Part shown: piece after piece, positions 1 through 31,866 of the stretch
Numbering within the stretch: the stretch's first letter is position 1
Layout: each line of letters starts with the position of its first letter
NCBI GenBank assembly: GCA_021786095.1
Contig: JAJYNX010000098.1
Coordinates: 448 to 64,447, forward strand
Direction of reading: 5' to 3'
DNA length: 64,000 nt
From: Actinomycetes bacterium
Lineage (GTDB): Bacteria; Actinomycetota; Acidimicrobiia; Acidimicrobiales; RAAP-2
Position numbers and translations under genes: made by a program
Notes under the pieces: generated by a model
Databases searched by the model: none
What the model saw: the letters and a program-made list of their open reading frames with translations, nothing else
Told to the model about the DNA's origin: nothing

Positions 1-716
1 AGGACGACGGGCGCCTGGGCTCCTGGGGCTGGTTGTGCATTCAGGTTGTAGAGGCCACCCGTGGCGCGAACGTAGGAGTTGAGACCATCGCTGTGGATTG
101 TCGCGCCTGGCGCAACGTTGGCGACCAAGAACTGACGCAGGGTCGCGTGGTTGACGCGGTCGACGATGCCCATTCGGCAACGCCCGAACCCACGGGGCTG
201 GTGTCGCTCGACCGCCACGATGACCGGCAACTTCGCCCCGTGCTGACGACCCCCGCGCTGGCCGGGAGTCCGCCCCCCATAGAAAGTCTCATCGACTTCG
301 ACGTCGCCTGTGAGCAGATCGCGTCCGGGGTTGACCGTCACGGTCCTGAGCTTGGTGAGCATCGTCCAAGCAGTCTGGTGGCTCCGAAGTCCGAGTTGTC
401 GCTGGAGGGCCATCGCAGAGATGCCGTCCTTACTCGTGGCGAACAGCCAGGCGGCGTGGAACCAGACTGTCAGGGGTGTGCGCGTCCGGTCGAAGATGGT
501 GCCGGCCGTGACACTGGTACGCAGATGGCACGATGAGCACTCGTAGCGCCCGTCCCCGTTGAGCCATCCAGCCGCTCCGCAGTTCTCGCAAACAAAACCG
601 CCGGGCCATCGAAGCCACCTGAGGTAGTCAAGACAGTCAGCGTCCTTCGAGAACCACGCACCGAACTCGCCGAGGTCTGCCGGGTAGTCCCGATGGGCAC
701 GGGGTGCGACGAGCAC
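1..716 (-). CDS. IS1595-family (ISXO2-like) DDE transposase, 3'-truncated by the window edge
   Basis: Manual translation from GTG at 716, no stop to base 1: ...DCLDYLRWLRWPGGFVCENCG...RYECSSCHLRTSVTAGTIFDRTRTPLTVWFHAAW...LTGDVEVDETFYGG...TIHSDG (Zn ribbon, HTH region, first two catalytic Asp). Confidence 0.92.
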   Translation of the reverse strand, partial: MLVAPRAHRDYPADLGEFGAWFSKDADCLDYLRWLRWPGGFVCENCGAAGWLNGDGRYECSSCHLRTSVTAGTIFDRTRTPLTVWFHAAWLFATSKDGISAMALQRQLGLRSHQTAWTMLTKLRTVTVNPGRDLLTGDVEVDETFYGGRTPGQRGGRQHGAKLPVIVAVERHQPRGFGRCRMGIVDRVNHATLRQFLVANVAPGATIHSDGLNSYVRATGGLYNLNAQPAPGAQAPVV

Positions 717-4522: not shown

Positions 4523-4560
4523 TGACATCGCCCCGACCGCAGCCGGTCGGGGCGATGTCA
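4523..4560 (-). terminator. Strong hairpin after the cytochrome b operon
   Basis: TGACATCGCCCCGACCG-cagc-CGGTCGGGGCGATGTCA perfect 17-bp stem. Confidence 0.75.
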
Positions 4561-4578: not shown

Positions 4579-5523
4579 CTAGGCGTCGCGGTAGTGCTCG
4601 CGCCAGATCACCCGATACAGCCTCACCTTGCGCGGGATCGCCCGCAGCCCCGGGATGAGGGGTAGGAAGAAGAGCACCAGGGTGAGGAGGATCATGATGG
4701 CGAACACCTCGATGTCGCCGTTGCTCGACGAGTTCATCGGCGGCACCTGGTACCAGAAGGTGTAGAGCCACAGCCAGGGCTGGCCCGGGTAACTGCCCGT
4801 CTCGTTCATCATGCCCCACTGGTTGCCGAGCATGTGCTGCTTCTGGGCCAGGTCCCCCAGGTAGCTGCCGTCAGCGATGAAGAGCAGCGGCTTGGTGTAG
4901 TCCGTGGTGTAGAAGCCGTTGCCCGAGAGCAACGCGGTGTCGAGCGCTCCGGTGCGCGCCATGTGGGTCAGGTCGTTGATCATCACCGGCACCGGTCCGG
5001 CGTTGGCCGCGGGTACCACCACGTTGCCGTTGGTGAAGGTCATGTGGCCCGCGACCTTGGTGTAGTTGGCGACCCAGGTGGTCCGGGTGCTCGCCGAGGC
5101 CGTCTCCCACGCGGTGAGGCTGGACTTCAACGCCGGGTTGTTGGGCTGGGACTGCAGCGGATCGATCACGAAGTCGTCGGCCGAGTTGATCGGGATGCGC
5201 ACACCCACCCACCGGGCCAGGGCGAGCGGTCCGAGCTGCTGACCGGGACCGTTGTGGTTGTAGGGCGCCCCGTAGGAGGCCGAGATCGACGTGCCGTTGA
5301 GCTCGCTCAGCGCGGTCGTGGCGAAGTCGATCGGTGCGGCGTTGGACCACTTCTTGATCGTGATCGCCGGTTCGTCGGGGGACCCGAACACCACGGCCAG
5401 TAGCACCACCAGGATGCCCACCACCACGATGGCGATGGTGCCCTCCTTGATGATGTCGTAGGGGCTGTAGCCCCCCTTGTACACCGGGGCGTCGACGTCG
5501 GGCCGGAATTTCTTGGTGCTCAC
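4579..5523 (-). CDS. Cytochrome b subunit-IV-like membrane protein with a large extracytoplasmic insert
   Basis: GTG 5523 overlaps upstream stop; N-terminal PYDIIKE plus TM helix; C-terminal PGQPWLWLYTFWYQVPP then TM ending FFLPLIP resembles the PEWY/ef-loop region; no CxxCH. Confidence 0.6.
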   Translation of the reverse strand: MSTKKFRPDVDAPVYKGGYSPYDIIKEGTIAIVVVGILVVLLAVVFGSPDEPAITIKKWSNAAPIDFATTALSELNGTSISASYGAPYNHNGPGQQLGPLALARWVGVRIPINSADDFVIDPLQSQPNNPALKSSLTAWETASASTRTTWVANYTKVAGHMTFTNGNVVVPAANAGPVPVMINDLTHMARTGALDTALLSGNGFYTTDYTKPLLFIADGSYLGDLAQKQHMLGNQWGMMNETGSYPGQPWLWLYTFWYQVPPMNSSSNGDIEVFAIMILLTLVLFFLPLIPGLRAIPRKVRLYRVIWREHYRDA

Positions 5524-6167
5524 TTGGTCGCTCCTTCGGGGGTGGTGACTGCCGTGGCGTCGTCGTCGTACGGCGGGACGACGCCCTTCACGCGAACCAG
5601 GATCACGTGCAGGGCGGTCAGGACGATGGCCGCGAGCGGTAGCAGCACGATGTGCCACATCAGCATCTGGCCCATGTTGAGCACGTTGAAGTAGGCCCCG
5701 CCACCGGTGGCGTTGATACCGTCCTTCGCCTGGGTCGAGATCCACTGGGAGTCGAAGTTGCTCTGTGAGACGTAGCCGGTGAAGGCCGTCAGCAGCGAGG
5801 CGAGGAAGGTGACCACGCCAGTCATCCAGGTGGCCGTGCGCCCTCCGCGCCAGGCCCCCATGAAGAACTTGCCCCACAGGTGCACGACCATCGCGAAGAA
5901 GAAGACCTCCACGCTCCACAGGTGCAGTGAGTTGACGAAGTGGCCGATGAACGAGCCGTGCCACCAGGAGGGTCCACGTAGTGCGAGCAGGCAGCCGGTG
6001 ACGATGACCAGGATCAGCGACGAGAGGGTGGCCACGCCGAACACGTAGATCCACGACGACACGTAACTGGGCTGGGTGTCGGGCAGCAGCTTCTCGGGGG
6101 GCAGCTTGCCCGCGGCGCGGTGGCGCAGGCGGGTCGTCCACTGGCGCTCGATTTCGGTGGTGCTCAC
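5520..6167 (-). CDS. Cytochrome b N-terminal domain protein (cytochrome b6-sized, four TM helices)
   Basis: Four heme-ligand His (SLHLW/VVHLW and MWHIV/ALHVI), LTAFTGY, NFDSQW motifs. Confidence 0.88.
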   Translation of the reverse strand: MSTTEIERQWTTRLRHRAAGKLPPEKLLPDTQPSYVSSWIYVFGVATLSSLILVIVTGCLLALRGPSWWHGSFIGHFVNSLHLWSVEVFFFAMVVHLWGKFFMGAWRGGRTATWMTGVVTFLASLLTAFTGYVSQSNFDSQWISTQAKDGINATGGGAYFNVLNMGQMLMWHIVLLPLAAIVLTALHVILVRVKGVVPPYDDDATAVTTPEGATK

Positions 6168-6346
6168 CGGTTCTCCTTTCGGCGGTTGCGGCCCGGGAAG
6201 GGCAGCAGCAGGGCGGCCACGAAGGTGATCACCATCAGACAGATCACGATGAAGTTGGCGTAGCTGACGTACAGCCAGTGCCAGTGGATGAAGTGGCCGT
6301 AGTTATTGAGCGGCACCAGTGCCGCGAGAAACGTGTACAACCCCAT
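6164..6346 (-). CDS. Small His-containing single-TM protein
   Basis: 60 aa, GHFIHWHW then hydrophobic helix ending LPFP; translationally coupled to cytochrome b. Confidence 0.7.
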   Translation of the reverse strand: MGLYTFLAALVPLNNYGHFIHWHWLYVSYANFIVICLMVITFVAALLLPFPGRNRRKENR

Positions 6347-6424
6347 AGATCTCCCACTCTCAGAGTCGGGCCCGCCCGACTCGTGCTGCCCAGTGTGCCA
6401 TACCGGTGCGGGGGCTACTAGGGG

Positions 6425-7387
6425 CTAAAGGCCCGCGGGCACCCTCACCGGTGGCGCCACCTCTCCCTTTCTAGTACCGGGCTCGCGGTCGTGCGCGCTC
6501 TGGCGCAGGTGGAACTGGGTGACGCCGATGGTGAGCGAGACCGCGCCGGCGACGTGCAGTTCGACCAGCACCGGTGGCACGTGCGTGAGGTACTGCGAGA
6601 CGCCGATCGCCGCCTGGACCAGTGAGATGAGCACCAGGCGTCGCACGCCCAACTGCAACGGCTGGGGGGCGCTGGAGTGCCAGATGGCGAAGAGCAGCCC
6701 TACGACGATCCCGATGAAGAGCATGGCGGCGACCGAGTGCACCCACACGGCGTCCACGAAGGGGAAGGGGAGCCGTCGCGCGACGAGCTGTCCCTGGGCG
6801 TTGCCGGCGTGAGGGCCCGACCCCGTGGCGGCCGTGCCGGCGATCAGTAGAACCACGAAGGGGACCCAGAGGAGGCGCGCGACGAGACGGAAGTGGGGAT
6901 CACGGACGTCGCAGCGGGTACCAGGTCCGTAGACGTACTTCGAGCGATGGTAGAGAACCGCCCCGAGGACCACCATCGCGAGGGAGAGCAGCATGTGGCT
7001 CGACACCAGCCAGGGGTTGAGCTTGGAGTAGACGACGAAGGCGCCGAGGATCGCGTTGGCCACCACGCCGGCGATGAGCAGGGCCGACAGCACCACCAGA
7101 TCACGGCGGTAGACCCGTCGAACCAGGGCGGCGAGGAAGGTGGCGCCGATGACCAGGATCAGGGCGAGAGTGACCATCCGATTCGCGTACTCGATCAGGG
7201 GGTGGATGCTCCACGATCCGGTGACCCGATGGTGGTAGCAGGTCGGCCAGTCCGGGCACCCCAGGCCCGAACCGGTCAGGCGCACGGCGGCCCCGGTCAG
7301 GACGATCACGATGAGCGAGAGGAAGGTGGCGAAGGCGAACCAGCGAAAGGCGGGGACCGAGATCGTACGGCGCGGGGAGTGGGGCAC
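6425..7387 (-). CDS. ctaA: Heme A synthase (COX15/CtaA)
   Basis: GAAVRLTGSGLGCPDWPTC, IEYANR, TGSGPHAG, WVHS, ELHVAGA. Confidence 0.92.
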   Translation of the reverse strand: MPHSPRRTISVPAFRWFAFATFLSLIVIVLTGAAVRLTGSGLGCPDWPTCYHHRVTGSWSIHPLIEYANRMVTLALILVIGATFLAALVRRVYRRDLVVLSALLIAGVVANAILGAFVVYSKLNPWLVSSHMLLSLAMVVLGAVLYHRSKYVYGPGTRCDVRDPHFRLVARLLWVPFVVLLIAGTAATGSGPHAGNAQGQLVARRLPFPFVDAVWVHSVAAMLFIGIVVGLLFAIWHSSAPQPLQLGVRRLVLISLVQAAIGVSQYLTHVPPVLVELHVAGAVSLTIGVTQFHLRQSAHDREPGTRKGEVAPPVRVPAGL

Positions 7388-8343: not shown

Positions 8344-8917
8344 TCCCCCTCGTCGGCGGCCCTCGCCGATGATGTTCGTCTCGCTGGGCCTGGGCACGCT
8401 GCTCGCGGTGATCGCCATCGCGGTGGTCTCGGTCCTGACGGGGGGGTCACCGTCGACGTCGTCGACGACCGCCCCGCCGGCCCTGGTCGGCGCGCGGGTG
8501 GCCCCCTTCACGCTGCCGGGGCTCGAGGGTGGGACGATCACGCCCCCCTGGCGACACCACCACCCGGCGATCCTGATCTTCTTCGCGTCCTGGTGCGGCC
8601 CGTGCCAGGGCGAGATGCCGGCGGTGGCGCGGTACCTGCGCGATCACCGGGTGGCGCCCGTGCGCGTGATCGGCGTGGACGCCAACGATCAGCGCGCCGC
8701 CGCCCGCCAGTTCGTGGCTCGCGACCACGTGACCTTCCCGGTGGGCTTCGACGCCAATGGCGTGGTCACCAGCCAGGTCTTCCACTTCGTCACCCTGCCC
8801 GAGACGGTCTTCGTGAACGCGCACGGCGTCGTCACCGGCGTTCACTTCGGCGCGATCCCGGTCTCCCAGCTCGCCGGCGGCGTTCGGGCGCTGATCGCGG
8901 GGGAGCGTCAGTCGTAG
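8327..8917 (+). CDS. Membrane-anchored TlpA/ResA-like thiol-disulfide oxidoreductase
   Basis: N-terminal TM, FFASWCGPCQGEMP, LPETVFVN. Confidence 0.88.
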   Translation: MSDTGSPPRRRPSPMMFVSLGLGTLLAVIAIAVVSVLTGGSPSTSSTTAPPALVGARVAPFTLPGLEGGTITPPWRHHHPAILIFFASWCGPCQGEMPAVARYLRDHRVAPVRVIGVDANDQRAAARQFVARDHVTFPVGFDANGVVTSQVFHFVTLPETVFVNAHGVVTGVHFGAIPVSQLAGGVRALIAGERQS

Positions 8918-9639
8918 CGAAAGGACCGGGCGGCGAGCAGGGGAGCGGCCACCGCCCACGCCGCCAGCGAGAGCCAGTCGGATCCCGATGGTGCGATCCC
9001 CGTTCCGAGGATGCGATGCAAGGCCTCGGCGAGCGCGCCCGAGGGCAGCGCCACCATGAGTCGCGCGAGCCCGGACGGCAGTGACGACGTGGGCAGGACG
9101 ATTCCCGAGAGCAGCAGCAGGACGAGGTAGAGGCCGTTGGTCGCGGCGAGGTTCACCTCGGCGCGGAGCCGGCCCGCCAGGGCGAGGCCGATGCCCGCGA
9201 GCCCCGCCGAGCCCAGGACCATCACGGCGATCACTGCCGCAGCGCCCACGGCCCCTCCGTGGGGGCGCCAGCCCAGGAGTAGTGCCACCACCGAGAGGAT
9301 CACGACCTGGAGGAACTCGGTCACCAGCACCGCGGCCACCTTGGCGCCGATCAGGCGCCGCTGGCCGAGGGGCGTGACGTACAGCCGTCGCAGGACGCCA
9401 AAGGACCGCTCGAAGCCGGTGGCGATCGACAGTGCCACCATCGAGGTCGACAGCACGCAGAGTGCGAGGATCCCCGGGGCGATGAAGTCGACGCGGTGCG
9501 TCGTGGGCGTCGCGGTGACGTGCACCAGCGCGAAGAACACCAGCAGCCCGACGGGAATGGCGATGGTGAGCAGGAGCGTCTCACCGCGTCGGACGGTCAT
9601 GCGAACCTCGGCGAGGGTCTGCGCCCACCAGGCCCTCAC
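8908..9639 (-). CDS. ABC-2 type transporter permease
   Basis: RRGETLLLTIAIP, SIATGFER, six TM helices; GTG 9639 overlaps the ATPase stop. Confidence 0.88.
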   Translation of the reverse strand: MRAWWAQTLAEVRMTVRRGETLLLTIAIPVGLLVFFALVHVTATPTTHRVDFIAPGILALCVLSTSMVALSIATGFERSFGVLRRLYVTPLGQRRLIGAKVAAVLVTEFLQVVILSVVALLLGWRPHGGAVGAAAVIAVMVLGSAGLAGIGLALAGRLRAEVNLAATNGLYLVLLLLSGIVLPTSSLPSGLARLMVALPSGALAEALHRILGTGIAPSGSDWLSLAAWAVAAPLLAARSFRYD

Positions 9640-10547
9640 GCGTGGTCCTCCGCACGCTCGTCCACGATCAGGGCGAGGTAGCGCTCCTCGAGCGACGCTC
9701 GCGTGCGCAGCGCCACGAGTGCCACTCCCGCCTCCCCGAGGTAGGCGTGCATCAGGGCGAGGCGCTCGGGGGTCGCCGTCGTGGCGCAGCGCAGGCGCAA
9801 CGGCCCGTCGAGGTCGACGCGACACGAGAGTCGCCGTGCGAGCTCGACGGGGTCGAGTGGGCTCGCGACCTCGACGATCAGCTCGGGCTCGCCCGCCAGG
9901 TCGTCCAGCGTGCCCGACGCGATGACGCGGCCGCGCTGCATGATGACCAGGCGGTCGGCGACCCGCTCCGCCTCGTCCAGTTCGTGGGTGGTGATGAGCA
10001 GGGCGCAGCCGCGCTCGCGCTCCGCGCCGATCAGCGCGCGGATCACTTGGCGACCTTCGGGATCGACGGCCGTGGTGGGCTCGTCCAGGACCAGTACCCG
10101 GGGACGGCCCAGCAGGGCCAGGGCCAGCAGCGTGCGCTGCTGCTCGCCGCCACTCAGGCGCCGCCACGGCGTGCGGGCGCAGCGCTCCAGGTCGAGCAGG
10201 GCCAGCAGCTCGTCGGGCGCGCGTGGTGCGTCGTAGTAGGTGGCGGTGAGCTCGAGGGCTTGACGGGGGGTCATGGGGAACCAGACGCCGCCGCGCTGCA
10301 GGAGTGCTCCGGTACGCGTGACGACCTCGCGGTGATCGCGCCGCGGGTCGAGCCCGTGGAGTCGCACCACTCCGGCGTCGGGCGCGCGGAACCCGAGGAG
10401 CGTCTCGACCGCCGTGGTCTTGCCCGCGCCGTTGGGTCCCAGCAGGGCGACGACCTCCCCGTAGTCGACGTGCAGACTCACGTCGTCCACGGCGACCAGA
10501 TCGCCGAAGGAGACCCGCAGGTGCTCGACGGCGATGGCGCTACTCAC
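9636..10547 (-). CDS. ABC transporter ATP-binding protein
   Basis: GPNGAGKT, LSGGEQQR, VLDEPT. Confidence 0.93.
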   Translation of the reverse strand: MSSAIAVEHLRVSFGDLVAVDDVSLHVDYGEVVALLGPNGAGKTTAVETLLGFRAPDAGVVRLHGLDPRRDHREVVTRTGALLQRGGVWFPMTPRQALELTATYYDAPRAPDELLALLDLERCARTPWRRLSGGEQQRTLLALALLGRPRVLVLDEPTTAVDPEGRQVIRALIGAERERGCALLITTHELDEAERVADRLVIMQRGRVIASGTLDDLAGEPELIVEVASPLDPVELARRLSCRVDLDGPLRLRCATTATPERLALMHAYLGEAGVALVALRTRASLEERYLALIVDERAEDHA

Positions 10548-23142: not shown

Positions 23143-24582
23143 TCACGTCGTGCTGGGCACCCGAGTGGGCACGCCGGCTCCGTGGAGGGGCACGCGGGCG
23201 TCGATGGTCGTGCCGTGATCGGGTGTGGCCAGGATGTCGCAGCGCCCACCCAGCAGGTGAGCGCGTTCGCGCATGCTGTGGATGCCGAGGTGGCGTCCGT
23301 CGAGCGCTCCGACAGTGTGCGAGTCGAAGCCGCGCCCGTCGTCGGTCACGCGCACGTGCAGCGCGTCGCCCACGAAGTGCATCTCGACGGTCAGGAGGGT
23401 CGCGTCGGCGTGGCGCACGGTGTTGCGCACGGCCTCCTGGATGATGCGAAAGGCCCCAATCTCCGCCTCGGGGGTTCCGCGCACCACGTCGCCGTCGAGG
23501 AGGAAGCGGGTGGCCACCTCGTGCTGGATCTCGACGTCGACGAGCAGCCCCCGCACGGCGGCCACCAGTCCGTACTGGTCCAGGCCTGCGGGATGCAGTC
23601 CTCTCGTGACCTCGCGCAGGTGGCCCACCGTCTCGAGCAACTCTTCGCGCACGACGTCCCAGCGACCGTGGTCGCCGTTGGCGGGCGCGGCGTCACCGAG
23701 CGACTCGACGCGTCGCGCCAGCTGTAGGAGCCGTTGGAGGGGGTCGTCATGGATCTCGCGCGCGATGCGCCGCCGTTCCTCCTCCTGCGCTCGCAGCACC
23801 TCACCGGCCCAGGCCCGTGCCTCGATCTCCGAACGGTGCTCCTCGGTGATGTCCTCGAGGACGACCTGATGGGACGAGCCGTCGCCGACGGTGTCGAGAC
23901 TCGAGATCGACGGTCGGTAGGTGCGTTCGTCGCCGTTCGGGGTGATGATGGTGACGGTTCGCGGCGTCGTGGTCGCGGTGATGTCGTCGACGGAGAGCCC
24001 GAGCAGGTCGTGCAGGGTGGAGCCGCGGGTATCGCCCCACAGCGTCGCGGCGGCGGGGTTGACCTCGACGACCGCTCCGGAGGGATCCACGAGGACGATT
24101 GGTGACGCGTTGGTGGTGAAGAGCTGGCGATAGTGCCATTCGGCCGCGCGACGCTCGGCCTCGGCGGACTCGGCGCGGGCTCGCTCGAGGTGGGCTCGCT
24201 CGATCTCGAGGCCCACGAAGAGGGCCACGACCGCTACGACCGCGAGCTGGACGAGGTCCTGGTGGTAGTGGCCCTTGTCGTGGTCGAGCAGCAGGTCGGG
24301 CGTCCACAGCAGGATCGCCCAGAGAGTGGTCGCCGCGGAGCCCGACAATCCGTAGTAGAGCGCGGCGTATCCGACGGGGATGAGTAGGAGATCGATGGGG
24401 ATCCCGTAGGGGAAGTACCGGTTGTCCAGCCCGCCGTGCATGTCGATGCCGATGTGGATGAAGGCCCACAGCACCACCATGAGCTGCACCAGCCAGAAGG
24501 AGCGCTCGCGCAGCGGCGGATGCAGGGCACCCCTCAGGATCTGGCGCACGGGGATGCGCGGCGAGGCGGGGCGCAGCGTCAC
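23143..24582 (-). CDS. Membrane-bound PAS sensor histidine kinase (HisKA_3 type)
   Basis: Four N-terminal TM helices, PAS-like region, EEERRRIAREIHDD, RIIQEAVRNTVRHA, DDGRGF, HLGIHSMRERA. Confidence 0.92.
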   Translation of the reverse strand: MTLRPASPRIPVRQILRGALHPPLRERSFWLVQLMVVLWAFIHIGIDMHGGLDNRYFPYGIPIDLLLIPVGYAALYYGLSGSAATTLWAILLWTPDLLLDHDKGHYHQDLVQLAVVAVVALFVGLEIERAHLERARAESAEAERRAAEWHYRQLFTTNASPIVLVDPSGAVVEVNPAAATLWGDTRGSTLHDLLGLSVDDITATTTPRTVTIITPNGDERTYRPSISSLDTVGDGSSHQVVLEDITEEHRSEIEARAWAGEVLRAQEEERRRIAREIHDDPLQRLLQLARRVESLGDAAPANGDHGRWDVVREELLETVGHLREVTRGLHPAGLDQYGLVAAVRGLLVDVEIQHEVATRFLLDGDVVRGTPEAEIGAFRIIQEAVRNTVRHADATLLTVEMHFVGDALHVRVTDDGRGFDSHTVGALDGRHLGIHSMRERAHLLGGRCDILATPDHGTTIDARVPLHGAGVPTRVPSTT

Positions 24583-25250
24583 TTGGCCGAGTTGGGCGAG
24601 ATCAGGTGGTGCTCGAGCACGTACACGATCGCCTCGGAGCGCGAGCGTACCCCGAGCTTGGCCAGCACCGCCGAGACGTAGCTCTCCACCGTGCGCAGCC
24701 CGACGCCGAGATCACGGGCGATCTCCTTGTTCGAACGGCCGCGTACCAGGCCACGGATCACGTCGAACTCGCGAGCGGTGAGGGCGTCGGCGACGCGCTC
24801 CTCGGGCTGTCGGCGTCGGCCGGCGAGTCGGTGCGACAGCACGCCGTCGATGACCGTGCCACCGAGCGCGACCGTGCGCACCGCGGCGATGAACTCGTCG
24901 GTGCCGATGGTCTTGAGCAGGTACCCGTTGGCCCCCGCCGCGAGGGCCTCGGAGAAGTAGACGTAGTCGTCGTGGGCGGACAGCATCAGGCAGCGCACGG
25001 GCAGTCCGGTGCCGACGACGTGGCGCACCACGTCGACGCCGCTGCCGTCGGGCAGTTCGACGTCGATGACCATGAGGCGGGGCGTGAGTCGCTGGGCGAG
25101 GTCGATAGCGTCGGCGACGGACGAGACCTCGCCCACGACCTCGATGCCGTCCTCGCGCTCGAGCATCTGACGGGTGCCCTCGCGCACGACGGTGTGGTCG
25201 TCCACCACCACCACCGTTATCGTTTCCTCGCGCGAGCGTACGTCCGCCAC
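24579..25250 (-). CDS. NarL/LuxR-family response regulator
   Basis: VVDDHTVVREG, GANGYLLK, LTAREFDV...GRSNKEIA...KLGVRSR. Confidence 0.94.
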   Translation of the reverse strand: MADVRSREETITVVVVDDHTVVREGTRQMLEREDGIEVVGEVSSVADAIDLAQRLTPRLMVIDVELPDGSGVDVVRHVVGTGLPVRCLMLSAHDDYVYFSEALAAGANGYLLKTIGTDEFIAAVRTVALGGTVIDGVLSHRLAGRRRQPEERVADALTAREFDVIRGLVRGRSNKEIARDLGVGLRTVESYVSAVLAKLGVRSRSEAIVYVLEHHLISPNSAK

Positions 25251-25425: not shown

Positions 25426-25983
25426 ATGAGCAGTGAGTCGGTGGTGAGTGGGCGCCAGGATGGGATGAGCCATCGGCTGCGGGGCCTCGTCAATCTGGTG
25501 GTGGGAGCCGTGCTGGTCGTCGCGGTGGTCTTCGCTCTGACGGCCGGCGTCGGCGCAATCTGGTCGGCCGTGACGAGCTCGTCGAGCCCCGGCGCGAGCG
25601 CGGCGCCGGCGGGCGGCGCACCCGTCACCCCCGCAGCCGTGGCGCTCAAGATGACGATCGACGCCCCGCCGGTGGGTGGGGTCAAGGGATCCAACGGGAT
25701 GGTGGACGAGGCGTACACGCCCGGGACTCTCACGATGAGCGTCGGGACCACCTATGACGTCACGATCCTCAACTACTCGAAGGACGGGCACACGTGGACC
25801 CTTCCGGAGCTCAACGTGAACGCGGTGGTGCCAGTGGGCTCGAGCTCCTCACCGTCGGTGACCCACTTCACCGTGACGCCGAAGAAGGCGGGGACGTACC
25901 AGTGGTTCTGTGCGGTGCCGTGCGAGAAGTGGTCGATGGCCACCAACGGCTTCATGCGTGGCTACGTGGTGGTCAAGGCGTGA
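25426..25983 (+). CDS. Membrane-anchored cupredoxin-like protein 1
   Basis: N-terminal TM; GHTWT and GTYQWFCAVPCEKWSMATNGFMRGYV. Confidence 0.8.
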   Translation: MSSESVVSGRQDGMSHRLRGLVNLVVGAVLVVAVVFALTAGVGAIWSAVTSSSSPGASAAPAGGAPVTPAAVALKMTIDAPPVGGVKGSNGMVDEAYTPGTLTMSVGTTYDVTILNYSKDGHTWTLPELNVNAVVPVGSSSSPSVTHFTVTPKKAGTYQWFCAVPCEKWSMATNGFMRGYVVVKA

Positions 25984-26039
25984 GGTCTCGTACCGCGGGG
26001 GAGAGCCTCCCGGTCGGAGTAACCAAAGGAGATAATCAC

Positions 26040-26606
26040 ATGAAGAGCACACTGGCCAAGGTGGTGACGGTGGCCCTGGCGGCGGCTCCCGCGATGGCCC
26101 TCGGCCTCGCACCGAGCGGCGCCGGTGCCGCCGGGGCGGCCGGTCACGTGACCGAGTCGATGCGCCTGATCACTGGTCACATGGACGGAAAGTCGGGCTG
26201 GCCGAAGATCACCAACTCGTCGTGGACCGTCCACAAGGGTGAGACCGTCACCGTCAAGATCACGAGCTACGACGACGGCACGGCCCCGTTGACCGGCCAG
26301 TACATGAAGTACGACAAGGTGATGGGCGCGACCACCGGCAAGGAGACCGTCAACGGCAAGGGCGTGACGACGGTGTCGGACATCAACGTCGCCCACACCT
26401 TCACGGTGCCTGGTCTCGGGTTCAACATGCCGATCCCGGTGGCACCGACTGGCGGTCACGTCACCGTGGTCGCGACCTTCATCGCCAAGAAGACCGGTAC
26501 CTTCGTGTGGCACTGCTACGCCCCGTGCGGCTCGGGCGCGACGGGCATGGCCGGCGCCATGACGACGATGGGCTGGATGACTGGAAAGGTCACGGTCGTC
26601 CGATGA
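26040..26606 (+). CDS. Secreted cupredoxin-like protein 2
   Basis: RBS AAAGGAG; Sec signal peptide; AHTFT and GTFVWHCYAPCGSGATGMAGAMTTMGWMTG. Confidence 0.85.
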   Translation: MKSTLAKVVTVALAAAPAMALGLAPSGAGAAGAAGHVTESMRLITGHMDGKSGWPKITNSSWTVHKGETVTVKITSYDDGTAPLTGQYMKYDKVMGATTGKETVNGKGVTTVSDINVAHTFTVPGLGFNMPIPVAPTGGHVTVVATFIAKKTGTFVWHCYAPCGSGATGMAGAMTTMGWMTGKVTVVR

Positions 26607-27337
26607 GTGACGAGCGCTCTCGCGGATCGCGCGGCGACGCGCCAGGTGCCGGCGATCCGCTGGAGCGGCTCGGGCGGTGGGACCCCCTCGAGCGGCTCGG
26701 ACGGCTGAGTTGGCGCCGCCCCGCGCGCGTCGCGCGCCAGGGGGGAATCGTGGTGGGCTCCTTCGCGGGCATCCTGGTGGTTCTCGGAGTCACGGTGGCC
26801 CTCGTGGGTGGTATCGCCGCGGCGGTGACGACGCTCACCAAGCCCGCGGCTCCTCCGGCGCTGGTGCCGCACGGCCACGTGACCGAGGCGATGAGCATCG
26901 TCTCGGGAACCTCGGGTGCGACCAACGGCTGGCCCGAGTACACCCACGCCTCGTGGACCGTCCACAAGGGTGAGACCGTCACCGTCAAGATCACGAGTTT
27001 CGACGACGGCACGGCGCCCCTCGTGGGGTCGCAGATGATGTTCGCGCACGTGATGGGCTCGACGAACGGCCACGAGACCGTGGACGGGAGGTCGATCACG
27101 TCGGTGCCGGACGTCAACATCGCCCACACCTTCACGGTGCCCGCTCTCAACTTCAACATGCCGATCCCGGTGGCACCGACCAACGGTCACGTCACCGTGG
27201 TCGCGACGTTCGTCGCGGCCAAGGCGGGCACGTTCACGTGGCAGTGCTACGCGCCGTGCGGGAGCGGGACGAACTCGATGGGCGGGGCGATGGCGACGAT
27301 GGGCTGGATGGAAGGCACGATCAAGGTGACAGCGTGA
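26603..27337 (+). CDS. Membrane-anchored cupredoxin-like protein 3 (paralog of protein 2)
   Basis: TM anchor; AHTFT and GTFTWQCYAPCGSGTNSMGGAMATMGWMEG. Confidence 0.85.
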   Translation: MSDERSRGSRGDAPGAGDPLERLGRWDPLERLGRLSWRRPARVARQGGIVVGSFAGILVVLGVTVALVGGIAAAVTTLTKPAAPPALVPHGHVTEAMSIVSGTSGATNGWPEYTHASWTVHKGETVTVKITSFDDGTAPLVGSQMMFAHVMGSTNGHETVDGRSITSVPDVNIAHTFTVPALNFNMPIPVAPTNGHVTVVATFVAAKAGTFTWQCYAPCGSGTNSMGGAMATMGWMEGTIKVTA

Positions 27338-28200
27338 TGACGAAGAACAGAGAGATGGTGCCGGCGTCCCCGGCGGTTGACGACGAGCACGACGAACTGA
27401 CCGCGGCTGCGGTCACGATCGGTCGGCGCGGACTCCTTCGCGCGGCGGCGCTGGGCGGACTGGGGCTCACCGCGCTCGGTGCGCTCGGCGAGACGGTGGC
27501 CGCGGCGGCCGAGTCCTCGACGACGACGCCGTCGGGCCCGACCCACCAGTGGTGCATGATCATCGACCTGCGCCTGTGCAACGGCTGCAAGCTCTGCACG
27601 ACGGCCTGCCAGACGGCGCACTACCTGCACGAGGACCAGACGTGGATGAACGTCTACACGATGCAGAACGCGGCGGGCGAGGACTACTACATGCCGCGCC
27701 CCTGCATGATGTGCGAGGACCCGGCGTGCGTCCCGGTGTGCCCCGTGGGAGCCAACATCCGCACCGACGAGGGCCTCGTTCTGGTGGACCAGAGCCGCTG
27801 CATCGGTACGCGCATCTGCATGAACGCCTGCCCCTACGACGCTCGGTACTTCAACTGGGAGCAGCCCGTTCCCGCCCCGCGTCAGCCGTTCCCCCAAGAG
27901 CCCGAGTGGCCCGTTCCCCAAGTCAAGGGCACGGTCGGCAAGTGCATCGACTGCGCCGCGATGCTGCCCTCGGGCCAGCTCCCCGAGTGTGTCACCCACT
28001 GCCCCATGGGCGTGCTCTACTTCGGCGACCTCACGTCGGACGCGGCGGTCAATGGCATGGGAGCGACGGTGAAGGTGTCGACCTTCCTGGCGGAGAACGA
28101 CGCCGTCGTCTTCAAGGAGGAGTACGGCACTCACCCGCGGGTGTACTACATCCCGGGTCACGGACAGGATTTGGACAACAATGCCGCGGCGTCGTCGTGA
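27337..28200 (+). CDS. Tat-exported tetra-cluster Fe-S protein (NrfC/ActB2-like)
   Basis: RRGLLR Tat motif; CNGCKLCTTAC, CMMCEDPACVPVC, CIGTRICMNAC, KCIDC...PECVTHC. Confidence 0.92.
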   Translation: MTKNREMVPASPAVDDEHDELTAAAVTIGRRGLLRAAALGGLGLTALGALGETVAAAAESSTTTPSGPTHQWCMIIDLRLCNGCKLCTTACQTAHYLHEDQTWMNVYTMQNAAGEDYYMPRPCMMCEDPACVPVCPVGANIRTDEGLVLVDQSRCIGTRICMNACPYDARYFNWEQPVPAPRQPFPQEPEWPVPQVKGTVGKCIDCAAMLPSGQLPECVTHCPMGVLYFGDLTSDAAVNGMGATVKVSTFLAENDAVVFKEEYGTHPRVYYIPGHGQDLDNNAAASS

Positions 28201-28221
28201 TGCGGGGGCGGAGGTAAGCGA

Positions 28222-29631
28222 ATGAGCAGCAACCTACTGGAGACCGAGCGAGTCGAACGGCCCGCCGATGCGCACGCGCGCGAGGACGTGCGCCACGCGG
28301 CGATGCGGCCCGTGCTCGAGACGCCGCGGTGGTGGTGGCCGGCCGTGCTGGTGCTGGGTGCCGTCGTCGTCCTGGGCATCGTCGCGTGGATGGTTCAGGT
28401 CGCCGACGGCCTGGGCACCGCCGGCTACAGCGACGGAGCCTTCTGGGCCATCTACGAGGCGAACCTCGTGGCCTTCATCGGCGTCAGCTACGGCGGCGCC
28501 GTGGTGTCGGCGATCCTGCGTTTGACCCACGCTGGCTGGCGGGCCCCCCTGACGCGGATCGCCGAGGCCACGGCCCTCGTGACCCTGCCCATCGGGATGC
28601 TCTTCATCATTCCCCACCTGGGCAGCCCCCAGAAGATCTGGGAACTGGTCTGGCCGCCGTACTGGAACCTGTCGTCGCCGATCCTCTGGGACTTCTTCGC
28701 GGTCAGCACGTATCTGCTCGCGACCATCGTGTTCTTCTATCTGCCGCTCGTCCCCGACGCCGCCATCGTGCTCGACCGCCTTGGTGACGCGCCGGCCAAT
28801 CGCCGCGTTCGCGTGCGGCGCACGCTGTACCGCGCGCTCCTGGGCCGCTTCGGGGGCACGCCGCGCGAACGGGCCGCGCTCAACGGGTCGATCGGCCTGG
28901 TCGCCATCATGATCATCCCCATGGCGGTCTCGGTCCACTCGGTGCTGTCCTTCGCGTTCTCGTCGTCGTCGCGACCCGGCTACATGGAGACGATCTTCCC
29001 GGTCTACTTCGTCGTCGCGGCGCTCTACTCGGGAGTCGCGCTGGTGGTGCTGGTGATCGCCGCGAGCCGGCGTCTCTTCCACCTCGAGGCGTTCATCGTG
29101 CCGCGCCACTTCGTGCGCCTGGGCTTCGTGATGATCGCCTTCGGTGCGGCGTACCTGTACCTCACCTTCACCGAGTACCTGGTCGACGGCTACTCGGGGA
29201 CCACCGGTGCGGCCGCCTGGGTGTACCAGGACATCGCTGGTCGCTACTGGATCCCCTTCTGGTTCTACTTCGTCGCGGCTGGCGTGGTGCCCCTGGTCAT
29301 CATGGCCGTGCGGCGCTTTCGCACGACGTCGGGGGTGGTGGTCGCCTCGACGCTCGTGGTGCTGGCCCTGTGGGTCAAGCGTCTCGTGATCGTGATCCCC
29401 CCGGCGACGGAGCCGCTCGTGCAGTCGCCGCTGGCCAAGGGTGGCGTACTCGCCGGCAACTGGGGTAGCTACCACTTCACCTGGGTGCCGATCTCGATCA
29501 CGGTGGCGGCCACCGCCGCGATACCGCTGCTGTTGCTGATCGTGTTCCGCTTCGTGCCCATCCTGCCGATGGCCGAGATGGAGGAGATGGACGACGAGCT
29601 CGTTGGCGCGTCGTCGAGGGAGGTGGCGTGA
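28222..29631 (+). CDS. NrfD/PsrC-family quinone-interacting membrane subunit (ActC-like)
   Basis: VSAILRL...WRAPLTRIAEA, PHLGSP, NLSSPILWDFFAVSTY, VSVHSVLSF, RFVPILP; about ten TM helices. Confidence 0.92.
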   Translation: MSSNLLETERVERPADAHAREDVRHAAMRPVLETPRWWWPAVLVLGAVVVLGIVAWMVQVADGLGTAGYSDGAFWAIYEANLVAFIGVSYGGAVVSAILRLTHAGWRAPLTRIAEATALVTLPIGMLFIIPHLGSPQKIWELVWPPYWNLSSPILWDFFAVSTYLLATIVFFYLPLVPDAAIVLDRLGDAPANRRVRVRRTLYRALLGRFGGTPRERAALNGSIGLVAIMIIPMAVSVHSVLSFAFSSSSRPGYMETIFPVYFVVAALYSGVALVVLVIAASRRLFHLEAFIVPRHFVRLGFVMIAFGAAYLYLTFTEYLVDGYSGTTGAAAWVYQDIAGRYWIPFWFYFVAAGVVPLVIMAVRRFRTTSGVVVASTLVVLALWVKRLVIVIPPATEPLVQSPLAKGGVLAGNWGSYHFTWVPISITVAATAAIPLLLLIVFRFVPILPMAEMEEMDDELVGASSREVA

Positions 29632-30176
29632 TGGCGCGGACGACGGGTCGTGGTGTGCGACGGGTGGGGGCCGCGTTCGGCGGCGCCCTGATCCTGGTCG
29701 CGGTGGCGTTCGCGCTGCCGGCGGCGGCGTCGGGCCCGAGCGTGGCGTTGCGGGCCTCGACCCCGTCGGGCGGTGGCGTGGCGCTGACGGCGCAGGTGGC
29801 GTCGGTCGACGCACCGGTGACGGTCGACTACTACGTGCACCTCGAGGAGTTCTCGGGCGCGCCCCTGCTGCTGATCGGCTCGTCGACGACCAACGCCGCG
29901 GGAGTGGCGACCGACGTCTACCAGCCGACGTGGTCGGGGCCGCAGAACTTCGTCGCCACGGTCGTCGCACCGAGCGGGACGGTTCTGGCTACTACGAGCC
30001 TGACGGTCCAGGCCGCGAAGACCGACCCCTTCGCGGGCAGCGTCCAGAGCCTGCGACCCGACGGCCTCATCGGCCGCTGGGTCGTGGTCGCCCTGCTGGC
30101 CCTGCTGTTGGCCATGTGGATCACGCTGCTGGCGGTGATCGTGCGCGTCCAGCAGGGTCCTCGCGTCGTGCGGTGA
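29628..30176 (+). CDS. Exported beta-rich protein with C-terminal membrane anchor
   Basis: N-terminal signal, Ig-like beta pattern, C-terminal TM; coupled to the nrfD-like gene. Confidence 0.7.
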   Translation: MMARTTGRGVRRVGAAFGGALILVAVAFALPAAASGPSVALRASTPSGGGVALTAQVASVDAPVTVDYYVHLEEFSGAPLLLIGSSTTNAAGVATDVYQPTWSGPQNFVATVVAPSGTVLATTSLTVQAAKTDPFAGSVQSLRPDGLIGRWVVVALLALLLAMWITLLAVIVRVQQGPRVVR

Positions 30177-30180
30177 CCTG

Positions 30181-31866
30181 ATGGCGGGCGTCGCGGGACT
30201 GTCGGTGACGAACCACACGGTCGTCGGGGCGTTCGATCACGAGCTGGTGATCCAGGCCGGGGTGATCGCGTCCCTCGCGATCATCGCGTGTCTCGTGGCC
30301 GTCGCGGTGGCCGGTCGCGGCGCGTCCAACGAGGACAGCGGGGATAGTGGGGCAGAGCCCGTCGCTCGGCGAGTCGTGCGCGTGGGCTTCGGCCTCGTCT
30401 GGCTTGTTGACGGCATCCTCCAGGCCCAGTCGGCGATGCCCCTGGGCATGATTCCCCAGGTGGTGCAGCCGGCGTCGTCGTCGTCGCCGAGCTGGGTGCA
30501 GCACCTGGTCAACGTCACCGCGACGATGTGGACCCTGCATCCCGTGAGTGTGCCCGCCTCGGCCGTGTGGATCCAGATTGGACTGGGAGTCTGGCTTCTG
30601 GGCGCCCGTCGGGGGGAGTGGTCGCGGATGGCGGGCTGGACCAGTCTGGCCTGGGGCCTCTTCGTGTGGGTGTTCGGTGAGGCCTTTGGTGGCCTCTTCG
30701 CGCCGGGCTTGTCCTGGTTGACGGGGGCGCCGGGGGGCGTCCTCTTCTACTGCGCGGCGGGCGTGCTGGTCGCACTGCCGGAGCGTCACTGGGAGTCGGC
30801 CCGCCTGGGTCGTGTCGTGCTGGCGACGCTCGGCGGCTTCTTCATGGTGATGGCCGCCCTACAGGCGTGGCCGGGTCGGGGCTACTGGCGCGGGGCGGGC
30901 ACGCACGGGCCGGGCACGCTGCTCGGCGCGGTTCAGGCCATGACGACCACCCCCCAGCCCTCCGCGCTGCGCTCGCTGGTCACGGGCTTCGCCGCGGTGG
31001 ACAGCGCGCACGGCTGGGCCGTGAACCTGGTCGTTGTCGTGGCACTCGGGGTGATCGGGGCGTTGCTCGTGCGTGCGCGGCCGTCGTGGTTGCGCGTGGT
31101 GGTGGTGGCTGGCGTCCTCCTGTGCCTGGCGGACTGGGTCCTGGTCCAGGACATGGGGTTCTGGGGCGGGGTCGGCACCGACCCCAACAGCATGATTCCG
31201 ACGGCCCTGTTGCTCGTCACCGGGTACCTCGCGGTGTCGAGCGTGCCCGCGACGCGACCGGCCGTGGTGCCTCAACGTCGCGTGGCCCGGGGCGCGCGCG
31301 TGTCGTGGGCGGCGTCGCTGGTCGCCCTGATCATGCTGGTCGTGGGCGTGGTCCCCGCGCTCGCGGCGGCGGCCGATCCCCGAGCGAGCACCATCCTCGC
31401 CCGCGCGGAGGGTGCCACCGTCGCCGCGCTCGACGCCCCGTCGCCGTGGCCGGGCTGGTCGGGTGCGACGGGGCCTTCGGGCTCGGAACCGACGGTGGTG
31501 ACGTTCCTCGGGAGCTGCGACGCCCGCAGTGACCTCGCCACGCTGCGCGCGGCCCAGCGTGATCTCATGGCGTCGGGCGACGCGATGAGTGTCACGGTGG
31601 CGACCGCCTGCGCGGCGCCGCAGGCGCCGGCGCGCTGGCGGGTGGCTCGACTGACGCCGGTCGAGCTGCGGCGCTGGCGCGCGGCCTTCGGACAGCTGAG
31701 TGGCCTCACGTCACGCCCGCGGGGTGATGTCTACTACGTGCTCGCTCCCGACGGCCAGGTATGCGACGCGCTCGTGACCGGCGCGGCGCCGGTCGGTGGT
31801 CCACTGGTCTCGTCGAACGCGGTGGAGCTCGCCGGGGTCGTGCGTCGTGTGGCGCTCGGCCTCTAG
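30181..31866 (+). CDS. Polytopic membrane protein (two DoxX-like repeats) fused to a degenerate SCO/thioredoxin-like domain
   Basis: GFGLVWLVDGILQAQ...VWVFGEAFGG and ...DWVLVQDMGFWGG repeats; C-terminal PTVVTFLGSC...YYVLAPDG without an intact CxxxC. Confidence 0.6.
   Translation: MAGVAGLSVTNHTVVGAFDHELVIQAGVIASLAIIACLVAVAVAGRGASNEDSGDSGAEPVARRVVRVGFGLVWLVDGILQAQSAMPLGMIPQVVQPASSSSPSWVQHLVNVTATMWTLHPVSVPASAVWIQIGLGVWLLGARRGEWSRMAGWTSLAWGLFVWVFGEAFGGLFAPGLSWLTGAPGGVLFYCAAGVLVALPERHWESARLGRVVLATLGGFFMVMAALQAWPGRGYWRGAGTHGPGTLLGAVQAMTTTPQPSALRSLVTGFAAVDSAHGWAVNLVVVVALGVIGALLVRARPSWLRVVVVAGVLLCLADWVLVQDMGFWGGVGTDPNSMIPTALLLVTGYLAVSSVPATRPAVVPQRRVARGARVSWAASLVALIMLVVGVVPALAAAADPRASTILARAEGATVAALDAPSPWPGWSGATGPSGSEPTVVTFLGSCDARSDLATLRAAQRDLMASGDAMSVTVATACAAPQAPARWRVARLTPVELRRWRAAFGQLSGLTSRPRGDVYYVLAPDGQVCDALVTGAAPVGGPLVSSNAVELAGVVRRVALGL

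What the first reader, a model, noticed from the sequence alone, without database searches (positions are those of the whole stretch)
4579..6346. Split cytochrome b module with no Rieske or cytochrome c1 partner and a rewritten Qo-site motif
Three coupled genes: a 60-aa His-rich peptide, a b6-sized cytochrome b with all four heme His but no heme-ci Cys (WIYVFG), and a subunit-IV-like protein. In the last, the PEWY region reads GQPWLWLYTFWYQVPP after a ~200-aa extracytoplasmic insert with no heme-c motif. The unit ends in its own terminator. It may be a quinol oxidoreductase whose insert docks a non-Rieske partner; the cupredoxins 20 kb away are one candidate (inference).
Basis: partly seen in the sequence, partly recalled or inferred. 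Interest (0 to 1): 0.7.

Follow-up and report, generated by a model that had tools for sequence, protein, structure and literature searches.

The report
Rieske-less three-subunit cytochrome b complex
Three overlapping genes encode a two-haem membrane cytochrome related to the core of respiratory complex III, but it has no iron-sulfur or cytochrome c partner and carries a large cofactor-free outer domain. The module is widespread, strongly conserved, separate from the cell's normal complex III, and apparently undescribed.

Summary
On the minus strand, 6346-4579, three translationally coupled genes (GTGA overlaps) end in a strong hairpin. They encode:
- a 60-aa one-helix peptide;
- a 215-aa cytochrome b with all four haem His, b6-type spacing and no haem-ci Cys;
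- a 314-aa two-helix protein (P3) with a Cys-free outer domain of about 190 residues.

All three are under purifying selection (dN/dS 0.04-0.15). Natural fusions occur in all three combinations, so they form one 7-helix complex.

P3 has no Pfam, NCBIfam or PDB match, and its modelled outer domain has no PDB fold match. With the outer domain removed, a profile comparison aligns it in register with helices E, ef and F of real subunit IV, above all controls. "Subunit-IV-like" is therefore moderately supported.

No Rieske or cytochrome c gene lies near the unit in 26 loci. The genome has a separate ctaE-qcrCAB. The cytochrome forms its own deep clade (100/100). The family occurs patchily in Actinomycetota, and also in Chloroflexota and Sulfobacillus.

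The cupredoxin proposed as partner is not conserved with the unit.

Function is untested. My best guess is a menaquinone-linked transmembrane electron conduit without a Q cycle. I found no description of the family in the literature I could search.

The parts
6164..6346 (-). 60-aa single-helix mini-subunit. The outer N-terminal stretch reads ..NNYGHFIHWHW... The TM helix is ANFIVICLMVITFVAALLLPFPG, followed by a basic cytoplasmic tail.
   Evidence: ATG start after a GGGAG ribosome-binding site; the stop overlaps the next gene's start in GTGA. dN/dS is 0.12-0.15. A small ORF with the same TM core and ..PFPG-basic tail stands upstream of the cytochrome in most loci read, 30-66 aa long. It is fused to the cytochrome in G143 and in P0246.
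5520..6167 (-). 215-aa, four-helix, two-haem cytochrome b of b6 size. It has no haem-ci Cys.
   Evidence: Pfam PF13631, 6e-15. The best PDB sequence match is cytochrome b6 (1q90_B, 5.6e-7), with the His ligands aligned. H82, H96, H172 and H187 are invariant. dN/dS is 0.04-0.06. The protein falls in a separate clade with 100/100 support.
4579..5523 (-). 314-aa P3, read as a remnant of subunit IV. Helix E has a PYDxxKE start and an FGSPD end. A cofactor-free, mostly helical outer domain of about 190 residues follows. Then come the ef-type helix (PGQPWLWLYTFWYQ), helix F, and a basic C-terminal amphipathic tail.
   Evidence: No Pfam or NCBIfam match. 6890 relatives had E <= 0.001, and 918 clusters at 50% identity. 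The AF2 model has pLDDT 79 and no PDB fold match. hhalign against subunit IV gives an in-register alignment. It is fused to the cytochrome in G047, P0247 and P0246.
4523..4560 (-). Hairpin that ends the unit: 17-bp perfect stem, 4-nt loop, no U-tract.
   Evidence: -41.8 kcal/mol, z = -4.3. Not found by the consensus terminator scan.

Best explanation
The three genes encode one 7-helix membrane complex. It is a Rieske-independent, accessory member of the cytochrome b family.

Composition:
- The core is a b6-type cytochrome b with two haems, bL and bH.
- The second large subunit keeps only helices E and F of subunit IV. Its ef loop has grown into a cofactor-free outer cap of about 190 residues, in the region where Rieske proteins dock on canonical complexes.
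- A one-helix mini-subunit completes the complex.

Proposed mechanism (inferred):
- The complex links the menaquinone pool to the outer face of the membrane through the two b haems, one electron at a time.
- There is no bifurcated quinol oxidation and no Q cycle.
- A quinone site on the cytoplasmic side looks retained. The evidence is the K26/E27 pair at the start of helix E, and Arg five residues after the bH ligand, as in b6.
- The outer quinol site is remodelled (xPWL in place of PEWY; Ile in place of the cd1 Gly) and covered by the cap.
- The outer donor or acceptor is unknown.

Shown: gene structure, haem ligands, conservation, fusions, absence of linked Rieske or cytochrome c genes, separate clade.
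Inferred: that the three proteins assemble, the quinone sites, the direction of electron flow, and the physiological role.
For: One complex:
- GTGA overlaps couple the genes.
- The unit is conserved in 26 loci, with the cytochrome gene truncated in one.
- Natural fusions exist in three combinations: peptide+b+P3 (P0246), b+P3 (P0247 and G047) and peptide+b (G143). All are compatible with an in/out topology of 1+4+2 helices.

Two-haem b6-type core.

P3 as helices E-ef-F of subunit IV:
- hhalign scores 27.8 local (E = 9e-4) and 27.2 global (E = 3.8e-5).
- Controls score at most 18.6 local and at most 6.2 global, for the reversed template and 20 shuffles.
- The alignment pairs PYDIIKE with FPDAIFKD, QPW with PEW, FWYQ with LFQ, and the two F helices.

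Cofactor-free cap: no Cys, and no conserved His, Cys or Met.

No partner genes: no Rieske near the unit in 15 genomes, and no recurrent neighbour.

Accessory role: all 11 genomes tested have another, canonical cytochrome b. This genome has ctaE-qcrCAB.

Distinct lineage: the clade has 100/100 support. A sister subgroup still has YCMGG and GPWY.

Selection: dN/dS is 0.04-0.15.

Fold: Foldseek top hits for the fusion model are all cytochrome b chains, with probability 1.0.
Against: - There is no experimental evidence of any kind.
- P3 gives no hit to PF00032 or to any PDB chain by HMM.
- The hhalign probabilities are only 23-44%. That test used a construct from which I removed the outer domain, and a template of 5 sequences.
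- The fusion model is of low confidence (pLDDT 68.7). Its superpositions on cytochrome b are poor (TM-score normalised to the model 0.18-0.26, to the target 0.26-0.48), so the 3D placement of helices E and F is not shown.
- The quinone sites are read from motifs only.
- A module with no second redox partner has no obvious net reaction, so the mechanism is incomplete.
- Recurrent neighbours in haem A and cytochrome biogenesis (ctaA, ccdA/resA/ccsBA) hint at another role.
Confidence: 0.5

Rival explanations
1. Outside-to-quinone oxidoreductase. This is a specific direction of the conduit, working like E. coli CybB. A small extracytoplasmic reductant, such as superoxide, gives electrons to the outer haem under the cap, and menaquinone is reduced at the cytoplasmic-side site. 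The complex would then be a stress-protection and energy-salvage device.
For: The inner-site motifs are retained while the outer site is remodelled. The cap is cofactor-free. Universal-stress-protein genes flank the unit in L041 and L043, with nitroreductase-like, OsmC or PspA genes nearby in L041 and L044. No partner protein is conserved.
Against: No homology to CybB. No substrate site has been identified. The neighbours vary, and stress genes are absent around the unit in this window.
Confidence: 0.15
2. A second Rieske/cytochrome b complex that borrows a Rieske protein and an acceptor encoded elsewhere, for example QcrA and QcrC on contig C14.
For: Every genome with the unit has Rieske-domain genes somewhere. 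Published work notes that Rieske genes are not always next to cytochrome b genes (PMC5600118).
Against: The outer insert sits in the ef loop, where the Rieske head docks. The Glu and Tyr of PEWY are lost. No Rieske gene is linked in 26 loci. G276 carries two copies of the unit but only one weak Rieske hit, and that hit lies beside its canonical cytochrome b.
Confidence: 0.1
3. A factor for haem A or cytochrome biogenesis. It could deliver electrons to haem A synthase CtaA, or it could handle haem itself. The Trp-rich WG..NE.G..PG..WLW..FWYQ stretch recalls the WWD motifs of haem lyases.
For: ctaA lies immediately upstream in the window, L021, L077 and L078, and 2-3 kb away in L013 and L014. 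It also lies immediately upstream in Sulfobacillus, whose CtaA is only 26% identical. ccdA, resA and ccsBA lie nearby in L044.
Against: 4 of 15 genomes with the unit have no CtaA at all, among them G276 (two copies) and G282. The unit is present in only 10 of 401 sampled Actinomycetota, most of which respire with aa3 oxidases. Most loci have no such neighbours. The bis-His ligand pattern is that of fixed haems.
Confidence: 0.1
4. A decaying remnant of a former bc complex with no present function.
For: The Rieske partner, helix G, the PEWY motif and haem ci are all lost. One locus (L046) appears to have a truncated cytochrome gene.
Against: dN/dS is 0.04-0.15. The cytochrome is 78-92% identical across the 120 closest of thousands of metagenomic relatives. 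The haem ligands are invariant across three phyla. Operon structure and fusions are conserved.
Confidence: 0.02

Closest known systems
Cytochrome b6 + subunit IV (PetB/PetD) of b6f complexes, and the split QcrB/QcrC of Bacillus-type menaquinol:cytochrome c reductases
   Same: The cytochrome is split, with a 4-helix, b6-sized N-terminal protein. The helix D His pair has the 14-residue spacing. The H-x4-R-x-K-G end of helix D resembles HFLMIRKQG of b6. The following gene encodes helix E, an ef helix with an invariant Trp, and helix F. The gene order is the same.
   Different: There is no Rieske protein and no cytochrome f or c. There is no haem-ci Cys (YVFGV in place of YCxGG). Helix G is missing. 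About 190 residues are inserted in the ef loop. The motif is xPWL in place of PEWY. A dedicated upstream one-helix subunit is present. PF00032 does not detect P3.
APWY-clade split cytochrome b complexes (Kao & Hunte 2014, PMC4122944), which probably correspond to subfamily G of Dibrova et al. 2017 (PMC5600118); that equivalence is my inference
   Same: [quoted passage not shown] Most other genomes of the same class carry APWY-type complexes.
   Different: APWY-type cytochromes sit beside Rieske genes and have a normal three-helix subunit IV. In the tree they fall on the other side of a 100/100 branch from this family.
Actinobacterial QcrB of the bcc-aa3 supercomplex (for example PDB 7q21, 6adq)
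   Same: These are the best Foldseek hits for the fusion model. The same genome encodes one.
   Different: QcrB is a long fused cytochrome b of about 540 aa with a PDWY motif. It is encoded in the ctaE-qcrCAB cluster with a Rieske protein and a di-haem cytochrome c.
Di-haem quinone-linked membrane cytochromes without a Q cycle (NarI, FdnI, E. coli CybB)
   Same: The proposed working principle is the same: two stacked b haems carry electrons across the membrane between a quinone site and a partner on the other face.
   Different: They have unrelated folds and histidine patterns. The resemblance is of function only and was not tested here.

Membership tests
Cytochrome b/b6 N-terminal domain (PF00033 / PF13631) | Profile score above the curated cut-off | tested here: met
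   PF13631 scores 56.0 bits against a cut-off of 27. PF00033 scores 32.3 bits against 27.2.
Cytochrome b/b6 N-terminal domain (PF00033 / PF13631) | Two His pairs in helices B and D that ligate haems bL and bH | tested here: met
   H82/H96 and H172/H187. They align to the b6 ligands. They are invariant in the 21 members aligned over this region.
Rieske/cytochrome b complexes (bc1, b6f, bcc) | A Rieske iron-sulfur subunit, normally encoded with the cytochrome b | tested here: not met
   No Rieske gene lies within 7-10 kb of the unit in 26 loci. In 15 genomes the Rieske hits lie elsewhere or beside the canonical cytochrome b.
Rieske/cytochrome b complexes (bc1, b6f, bcc) | Qo motif P-[ED]-W-Y in the ef loop | tested here: not met
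   The window reads Q-P-W-L. The family consensus is PGxxW[LW]; the Trp is invariant, there is no acidic residue and the Tyr is lost.
Rieske/cytochrome b complexes (bc1, b6f, bcc) | A c-type cytochrome or other high-potential acceptor subunit | tested here: not met
   None of the three proteins has CxxCH. No cytochrome c gene lies in the neighbourhoods read.
Subunit IV / cytochrome b C-terminal domain (PF00032) | Profile match to PF00032 | tested here: not met
   No hit for the window's P3 at E <= 1, nor for 9 divergent P3 members at E <= 10. Profiles of P3 find no PDB chain at E <= 10.
Subunit IV / cytochrome b C-terminal domain (PF00032) | Helices E, F and G with the ef helix between E and F | tested here: inconclusive
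   P3 has two TM helices, not three. hhalign of P3 without its outer domain against PEWY-type subunit IV is in register and above all controls (local score 27.8 against at most 18.6; global 27.2 against at most 6.2), but the probabilities are only 23-44%. The 3D placement is not resolved.
b6f / Bacillus-type b6 with haem ci | CxGG motif in helix A | tested here: not met
   The window has YVFGV. Only the sister subgroup (G078, G126) keeps YCMGG.

The most novel reading that the evidence does not exclude
This would be a member of an unrecognised class of respiratory membrane enzyme of monoderm-type bacteria (Actinomycetota, Chloroflexota, Bacillota). It is a Rieske-independent cytochrome b6 complex. 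In it, the ef loop of a two-helix subunit IV has become a catalytic or docking cap. The cap would let the outer b haem exchange electrons directly with an extracytoplasmic small molecule or an unknown partner, and so couple that exchange to the menaquinone pool.
Probability: 0.25. Interest if true: 0.85.

Novelty: new variant of a known kind. Interest (0 to 1): 0.66.

Why it matters
Cytochrome b of the bc/b6f type is usually treated as inseparable from the Rieske protein and the Q cycle. Here a large, strongly conserved clade keeps the two-haem core and the start of subunit IV. It has dropped the whole high-potential branch and gained a domain of unknown fold in its place.

It coexists with a normal complex III, so it must do something else. 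Working out what would add a missing element to the respiratory chains of abundant soil and freshwater Actinomycetota, Chloroflexota and acidophilic Bacillota.

It would also show what a cytochrome b core can do without bifurcation.

Sulfobacillus acidophilus, which is cultured, carries the module, so the question can be tested directly.

Tried and rejected
Cupredoxin 20 kb away as partner. Rejected. It sits in a separate operon with NrfC-like and NrfD-like genes. It is absent from 12 of 15 genomes that carry the unit.

CtaA electron donor as the general function. Weakened. 4 of 15 genomes with the unit lack CtaA.

Recurrent neighbours. All-against-all clustering of ORFs from 20 loci found none beyond close relatives.

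Known fold for the outer domain. Foldseek against the PDB found nothing below E = 1.

Sequence link of P3 to solved structures. Profiles of full-length P3 and of P3 without its outer domain gave no PDB hits at E <= 10.

PF00032 in P3. No hit in the window's P3 or in nine divergent members.

3D test of the helix E/F positions, using the natural triple fusion. The model was too weak to decide (pLDDT 68.7; TM-score normalised to the model 0.18-0.26). The tools gave me no model coordinates to inspect.

First fusion alignment (A2). It placed the peptides wrongly, so I rebuilt it as A3.

hhalign against APWY-type subunit IV. Only helix E aligned (probability 9-11%).

Literature. Searches for Rieske-less cytochrome b, Sulfobacillus cytochrome b6 and DosR-regulated cytochrome b found no description of this family.

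The conserved Y84-G-P-P-Y88 resembles the YxxxY haem motif of NEAT domains. I treat it as a chance resemblance, because the modelled outer domain is mostly helical, unlike the beta-sandwich NEAT fold.
Full report
**1. What is in the sequence**

On the minus strand of the window three ORFs follow one another with 4-base GTGA overlaps:
- a 60-aa peptide (6346..6164, ATG start preceded by GGGAG);
- a 215-aa protein (6167..5520);
- a 314-aa protein that I call P3 (5523..4579).

Nineteen bases after the P3 stop lies a perfect 17-bp hairpin (4560..4523). It folds at -41.8 kcal/mol with z = -4.3, and none of 200 shuffles folds as well. It has no U-tract, so the consensus terminator scan did not list it.

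The surroundings are as follows:
- Upstream on the same strand is ctaA, the haem A synthase gene (7387..6425).
- Divergent from ctaA are ctaB, a redoxin gene and an ABC-2 transporter pair.
- Downstream are a small acidic protein gene and tRNA-Ala.

**2. The middle protein is a real two-haem cytochrome b of the b6 type**

- It passes both Pfam cytochrome b N-terminal models.
- Its best solved relative by sequence is cytochrome b6 (1q90_B, E = 5.6e-7), with the haem ligands aligned.
- The ligands are H82/H96 and H172/H187. Fourteen residues separate the second pair, which is the b6 pattern.
- All four His are invariant in the 21 family members aligned over this region, from three phyla.
- The haem-ci Cys of b6 and Bacillus-type cytochromes is Val here (WIYVFGV).
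- The end of helix D (HVILVRVKGVVPP) resembles HFLMIRKQGISGP of b6.

**3. The third protein, P3**

P3 has no Pfam or NCBIfam match, and profiles of it find nothing in the PDB at E <= 10.

Its layout is:
- a basic N-terminus;
- a TM helix at about 28-48;
- about 190 hydrophilic residues;
- the aromatic stretch GQPWLWLYTFWYQVPP;
- a second TM helix at about 283-303;
- a strongly basic, conserved tail (PGLRAIPRKVRLYRVIWREHY).

By the positive-inside rule the large domain faces outward. P3 has no Cys, and no alignment column has conserved His, Cys or Met. A covalent haem, a copper site or an iron-sulfur site is therefore unlikely.

An AlphaFold2 model from 26 sequences (pLDDT 79, pTM 0.69) shows a mostly helical outer domain. 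Foldseek found no PDB match below E = 1.

**4. Is P3 subunit-IV-like?**

The profile HMM tests say no. Other evidence says probably yes, for helices E and F only.

*Position.* P3 follows a b6-sized cytochrome gene, as petD follows petB.

*Fusions.* Natural fusions occur in three combinations:
- cytochrome + P3, in the complete genome G047 and in P0247;
- peptide + cytochrome, in G143;
- all three, in the 639-aa P0246, which is a single called gene on a 16-kb contig.

All are compatible with a 1+4+2-helix topology. That gives seven helices, the same total as b6 plus subunit IV.

*Profile comparison.*
- I removed the outer domain (residues 59-235) from 22 family members and compared the profile with real subunit IV sequences. 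Those sequences came from genomes of the same class.
- Against the PEWY type, hhalign gave a local score of 27.8 (E = 9e-4, probability 23%, 91 columns). The global score was 27.2 (E = 3.8e-5, probability 44%).
- The reversed template scored 18.6 local and 6.2 global. Twenty column shuffles scored at most 15.8 local and 5.6 global.
- The alignment is in register at every landmark. PYDIIKE pairs with FPDAIFKD at the start of helix E. FGSPD falls at the end of helix E. QPW pairs with PEW, and FWYQ with LFQ. The two F helices align.
- Against the APWY type only helix E aligned.

*Caveats.* The deletion boundaries were my choice. The template had only five sequences. The probabilities are modest.

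*3D test.* The triple fusion was inconclusive. The model had pLDDT 68.7. All top Foldseek hits were cytochrome b chains (probability 1.0, E about 2e-3), and the alignments ran the whole length of long cytochromes b. TM-scores were low, however: 0.18-0.26 normalised to the model and 0.26-0.48 normalised to the target.

**5. The peptide**

A small ORF with the same TM core and a ..PFPG-basic tail precedes the cytochrome gene in most loci I read. It is 30-66 aa long. Its dN/dS is 0.12-0.15.

Only H18 is semi-conserved in the long forms, and the short forms lack that whole N-terminal stretch.

Some lineages add a fourth, downstream ORF of 55-122 aa with one or two predicted hydrophobic helices. 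The window does not, because the terminator follows P3 directly.

**6. No Rieske or cytochrome c partner, and a separate normal complex III**

- The window's genome encodes ctaE-qcrC-qcrA-qcrB on another contig, C14.
- None of 26 loci has a Rieske or qcrC gene within the 7-10 kb read on each side.
- In 15 whole genomes, every Rieske-domain hit lies elsewhere or beside the canonical cytochrome b.
- All 11 genomes tested have another, canonical cytochrome b.
- Within the window's order the sample splits cleanly. Six genomes have a long QcrB plus this unit. Seven have a split b6-type cytochrome with APWY subunit IV and no unit. This may simply reflect shared ancestry.

**7. Family and distribution**

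- The word-indexed search scored 8000 candidates for each protein. 6890 (P3) and 7569 (cytochrome) had E <= 0.001. The closest were mostly Acidimicrobiales MAG proteins labelled 'hypothetical protein' or 'cytochrome b N-terminal domain-containing'.
- The exhaustive search found 918 clusters at 50% identity.
- Among reference genomes the unit is patchy: 8 of 151 in the class and 10 of 401 in the phylum, spread over 9 genera.
- Members also occur in Chloroflexota MAGs and in cultured Sulfobacillus acidophilus (AEJ41237.1, AEW04317.1).
- In a maximum-likelihood tree the unit's cytochromes form one clade (100/100). A long branch separates them from APWY-type, PEWY-type and QcrB cytochromes.
- The sister subgroup (G078, G126; P3 27% identical) still has YCMGG and GPWY. 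That points to descent from a haem-ci-bearing cytochrome of b6 type, near the APWY clade of Kao & Hunte (PMC4122944).
- Neither that paper nor Dibrova et al. 2017 (PMC5600118) describes a Rieske-less capped family.
- My other literature searches found nothing either.

**8. Neighbours**

- No gene recurs beside the unit across lineages.
- ctaA is adjacent in the window and its close relatives.
- ctaA is also adjacent in Sulfobacillus, whose CtaA is only 26% identical to the window's.
- ccdA, resA and ccsBA lie nearby in one locus.
- Universal-stress-protein genes flank the unit in two loci, with a nitroreductase-like gene in one of them.
- Four of 15 genomes with the unit have no CtaA. A role tied to haem A therefore cannot be general.
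It is missing from 12 of 15 genomes with the unit.

**9. How it most likely works**

*Shown:*
- a conserved, selected three-gene unit;
- a cytochrome b with a complete set of bis-His ligands;
- a partner protein that plausibly supplies helices E and F;
- no linked high-potential subunits.

*Inferred:*
- The inner, Qi-like quinone site is probably retained. The D23...K26-E27 motif at the start of helix E matches the Lys-Asp pair of canonical cytochromes. Arg follows the bH ligand by five residues, as in b6.
- The outer site has lost the acidic residue and the Tyr of PEWY. It has Ile where cd1 has Gly in bc1. It lies under a cofactor-free cap of about 190 residues.
- Without a Rieske centre within electron-transfer distance, bifurcated quinol oxidation is not possible.

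I therefore propose a menaquinone-linked, two-haem transmembrane conduit without a Q cycle. It would work in the manner of NarI or CybB, though it is unrelated to them. The outer donor or acceptor is unknown.

I give this about 0.5. The structural part I hold at about 0.85.

The rivals are:
- a superoxide-type donor reducing the quinone pool;
- a Rieske protein borrowed in trans;
- a role in haem or cytochrome biogenesis;
- a decaying relic.

Each is listed in its own section with its evidence.

**10. Earlier notes of this scan**

Several earlier notes describe the same family in other genomes and reach similar structural conclusions. I treated them as leads only. Gene structure, absence of Rieske, fusions, distribution and the subunit IV question were all tested independently here.

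- the controlled profile comparison with real subunit IV;
- the tree;
- the sister subgroup that keeps CxGG and PWY;
- the tests of CtaA and of the cupredoxin.

**11. Verdict**

This is a new, apparently undescribed variant of the cytochrome b complex family, with unknown function.

Noticed in passing
window 25426-31866 (+), with 23143-25250 (-): A separate respiratory-looking operon. It encodes a cupredoxin (185 aa), two proteins with no family match (188 and 244 aa), a 4Fe-4S dicluster protein (NrfC-like, 288 aa), an NrfD-like membrane protein (469 aa), and two more unassigned proteins (182 and 561 aa). A divergent PAS/HisKA_3 kinase and a LuxR-type response regulator precede it. The cupredoxin has homologues in only 3 of 22 related genomes.
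   Followed up: partly
genome contig C14, 24174-28173 (-), outside the window: The canonical actinobacterial ctaE-qcrC-qcrA-qcrB cluster. QcrB has the motif PDWY. PF00032 does not detect its C-terminal half.
   Followed up: partly
genomes of the window's order and class: 139 of 151 genomes of the class have a PF00032-positive subunit IV. Of the 30 fetched, 25 have APWY and 5 have PEWY. All six close genomes that carry the three-gene unit lack such a subunit IV and have a long QcrB. In this sample the two kinds of bc complex and the unit sort perfectly.
   Followed up: partly
L011/L018 (G126:C8) and L012/L019 (G078:C24): A sister subgroup of the family. Its cytochrome keeps the haem-ci motif YCMGG and its P3 reads GPWYLIIP. 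I found no upstream mini-peptide. In G126, a canonical Rieske/b6/PEWY-subunit IV operon lies 14 kb upstream on the same contig.
   Followed up: partly
window 6347-6424 (-), between ctaA and the peptide gene: An 8-bp GC-rich hairpin (GAGUCGGG-CGGG-CCCGACUC) lies 19 nt upstream of the peptide's start codon. The fold energy of the whole spacer is no better than its shuffles (z = -0.2). It cannot be decided here whether it ends the ctaA transcript.
   Followed up: partly
window 3-716 (-): An IS1595/ISXO2-type transposase gene is cut off by the start of the window, near the contig end.
   Followed up: no
window 8908-10547 (-): An ABC-2 permease with a weak, sub-threshold CcmB (haem exporter) match, plus an ABC ATPase. 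They lie next to ctaB and a redoxin gene. The same set accompanies ctaA and ctaB in the close relatives L021, L077 and L078.
   Followed up: no
L046 (ENA scaffold, Actinomycetes MAG): Only the C-terminal 80 residues of the cytochrome are found upstream of an intact P3. The cause may be a broken gene or an assembly fault.
   Followed up: no
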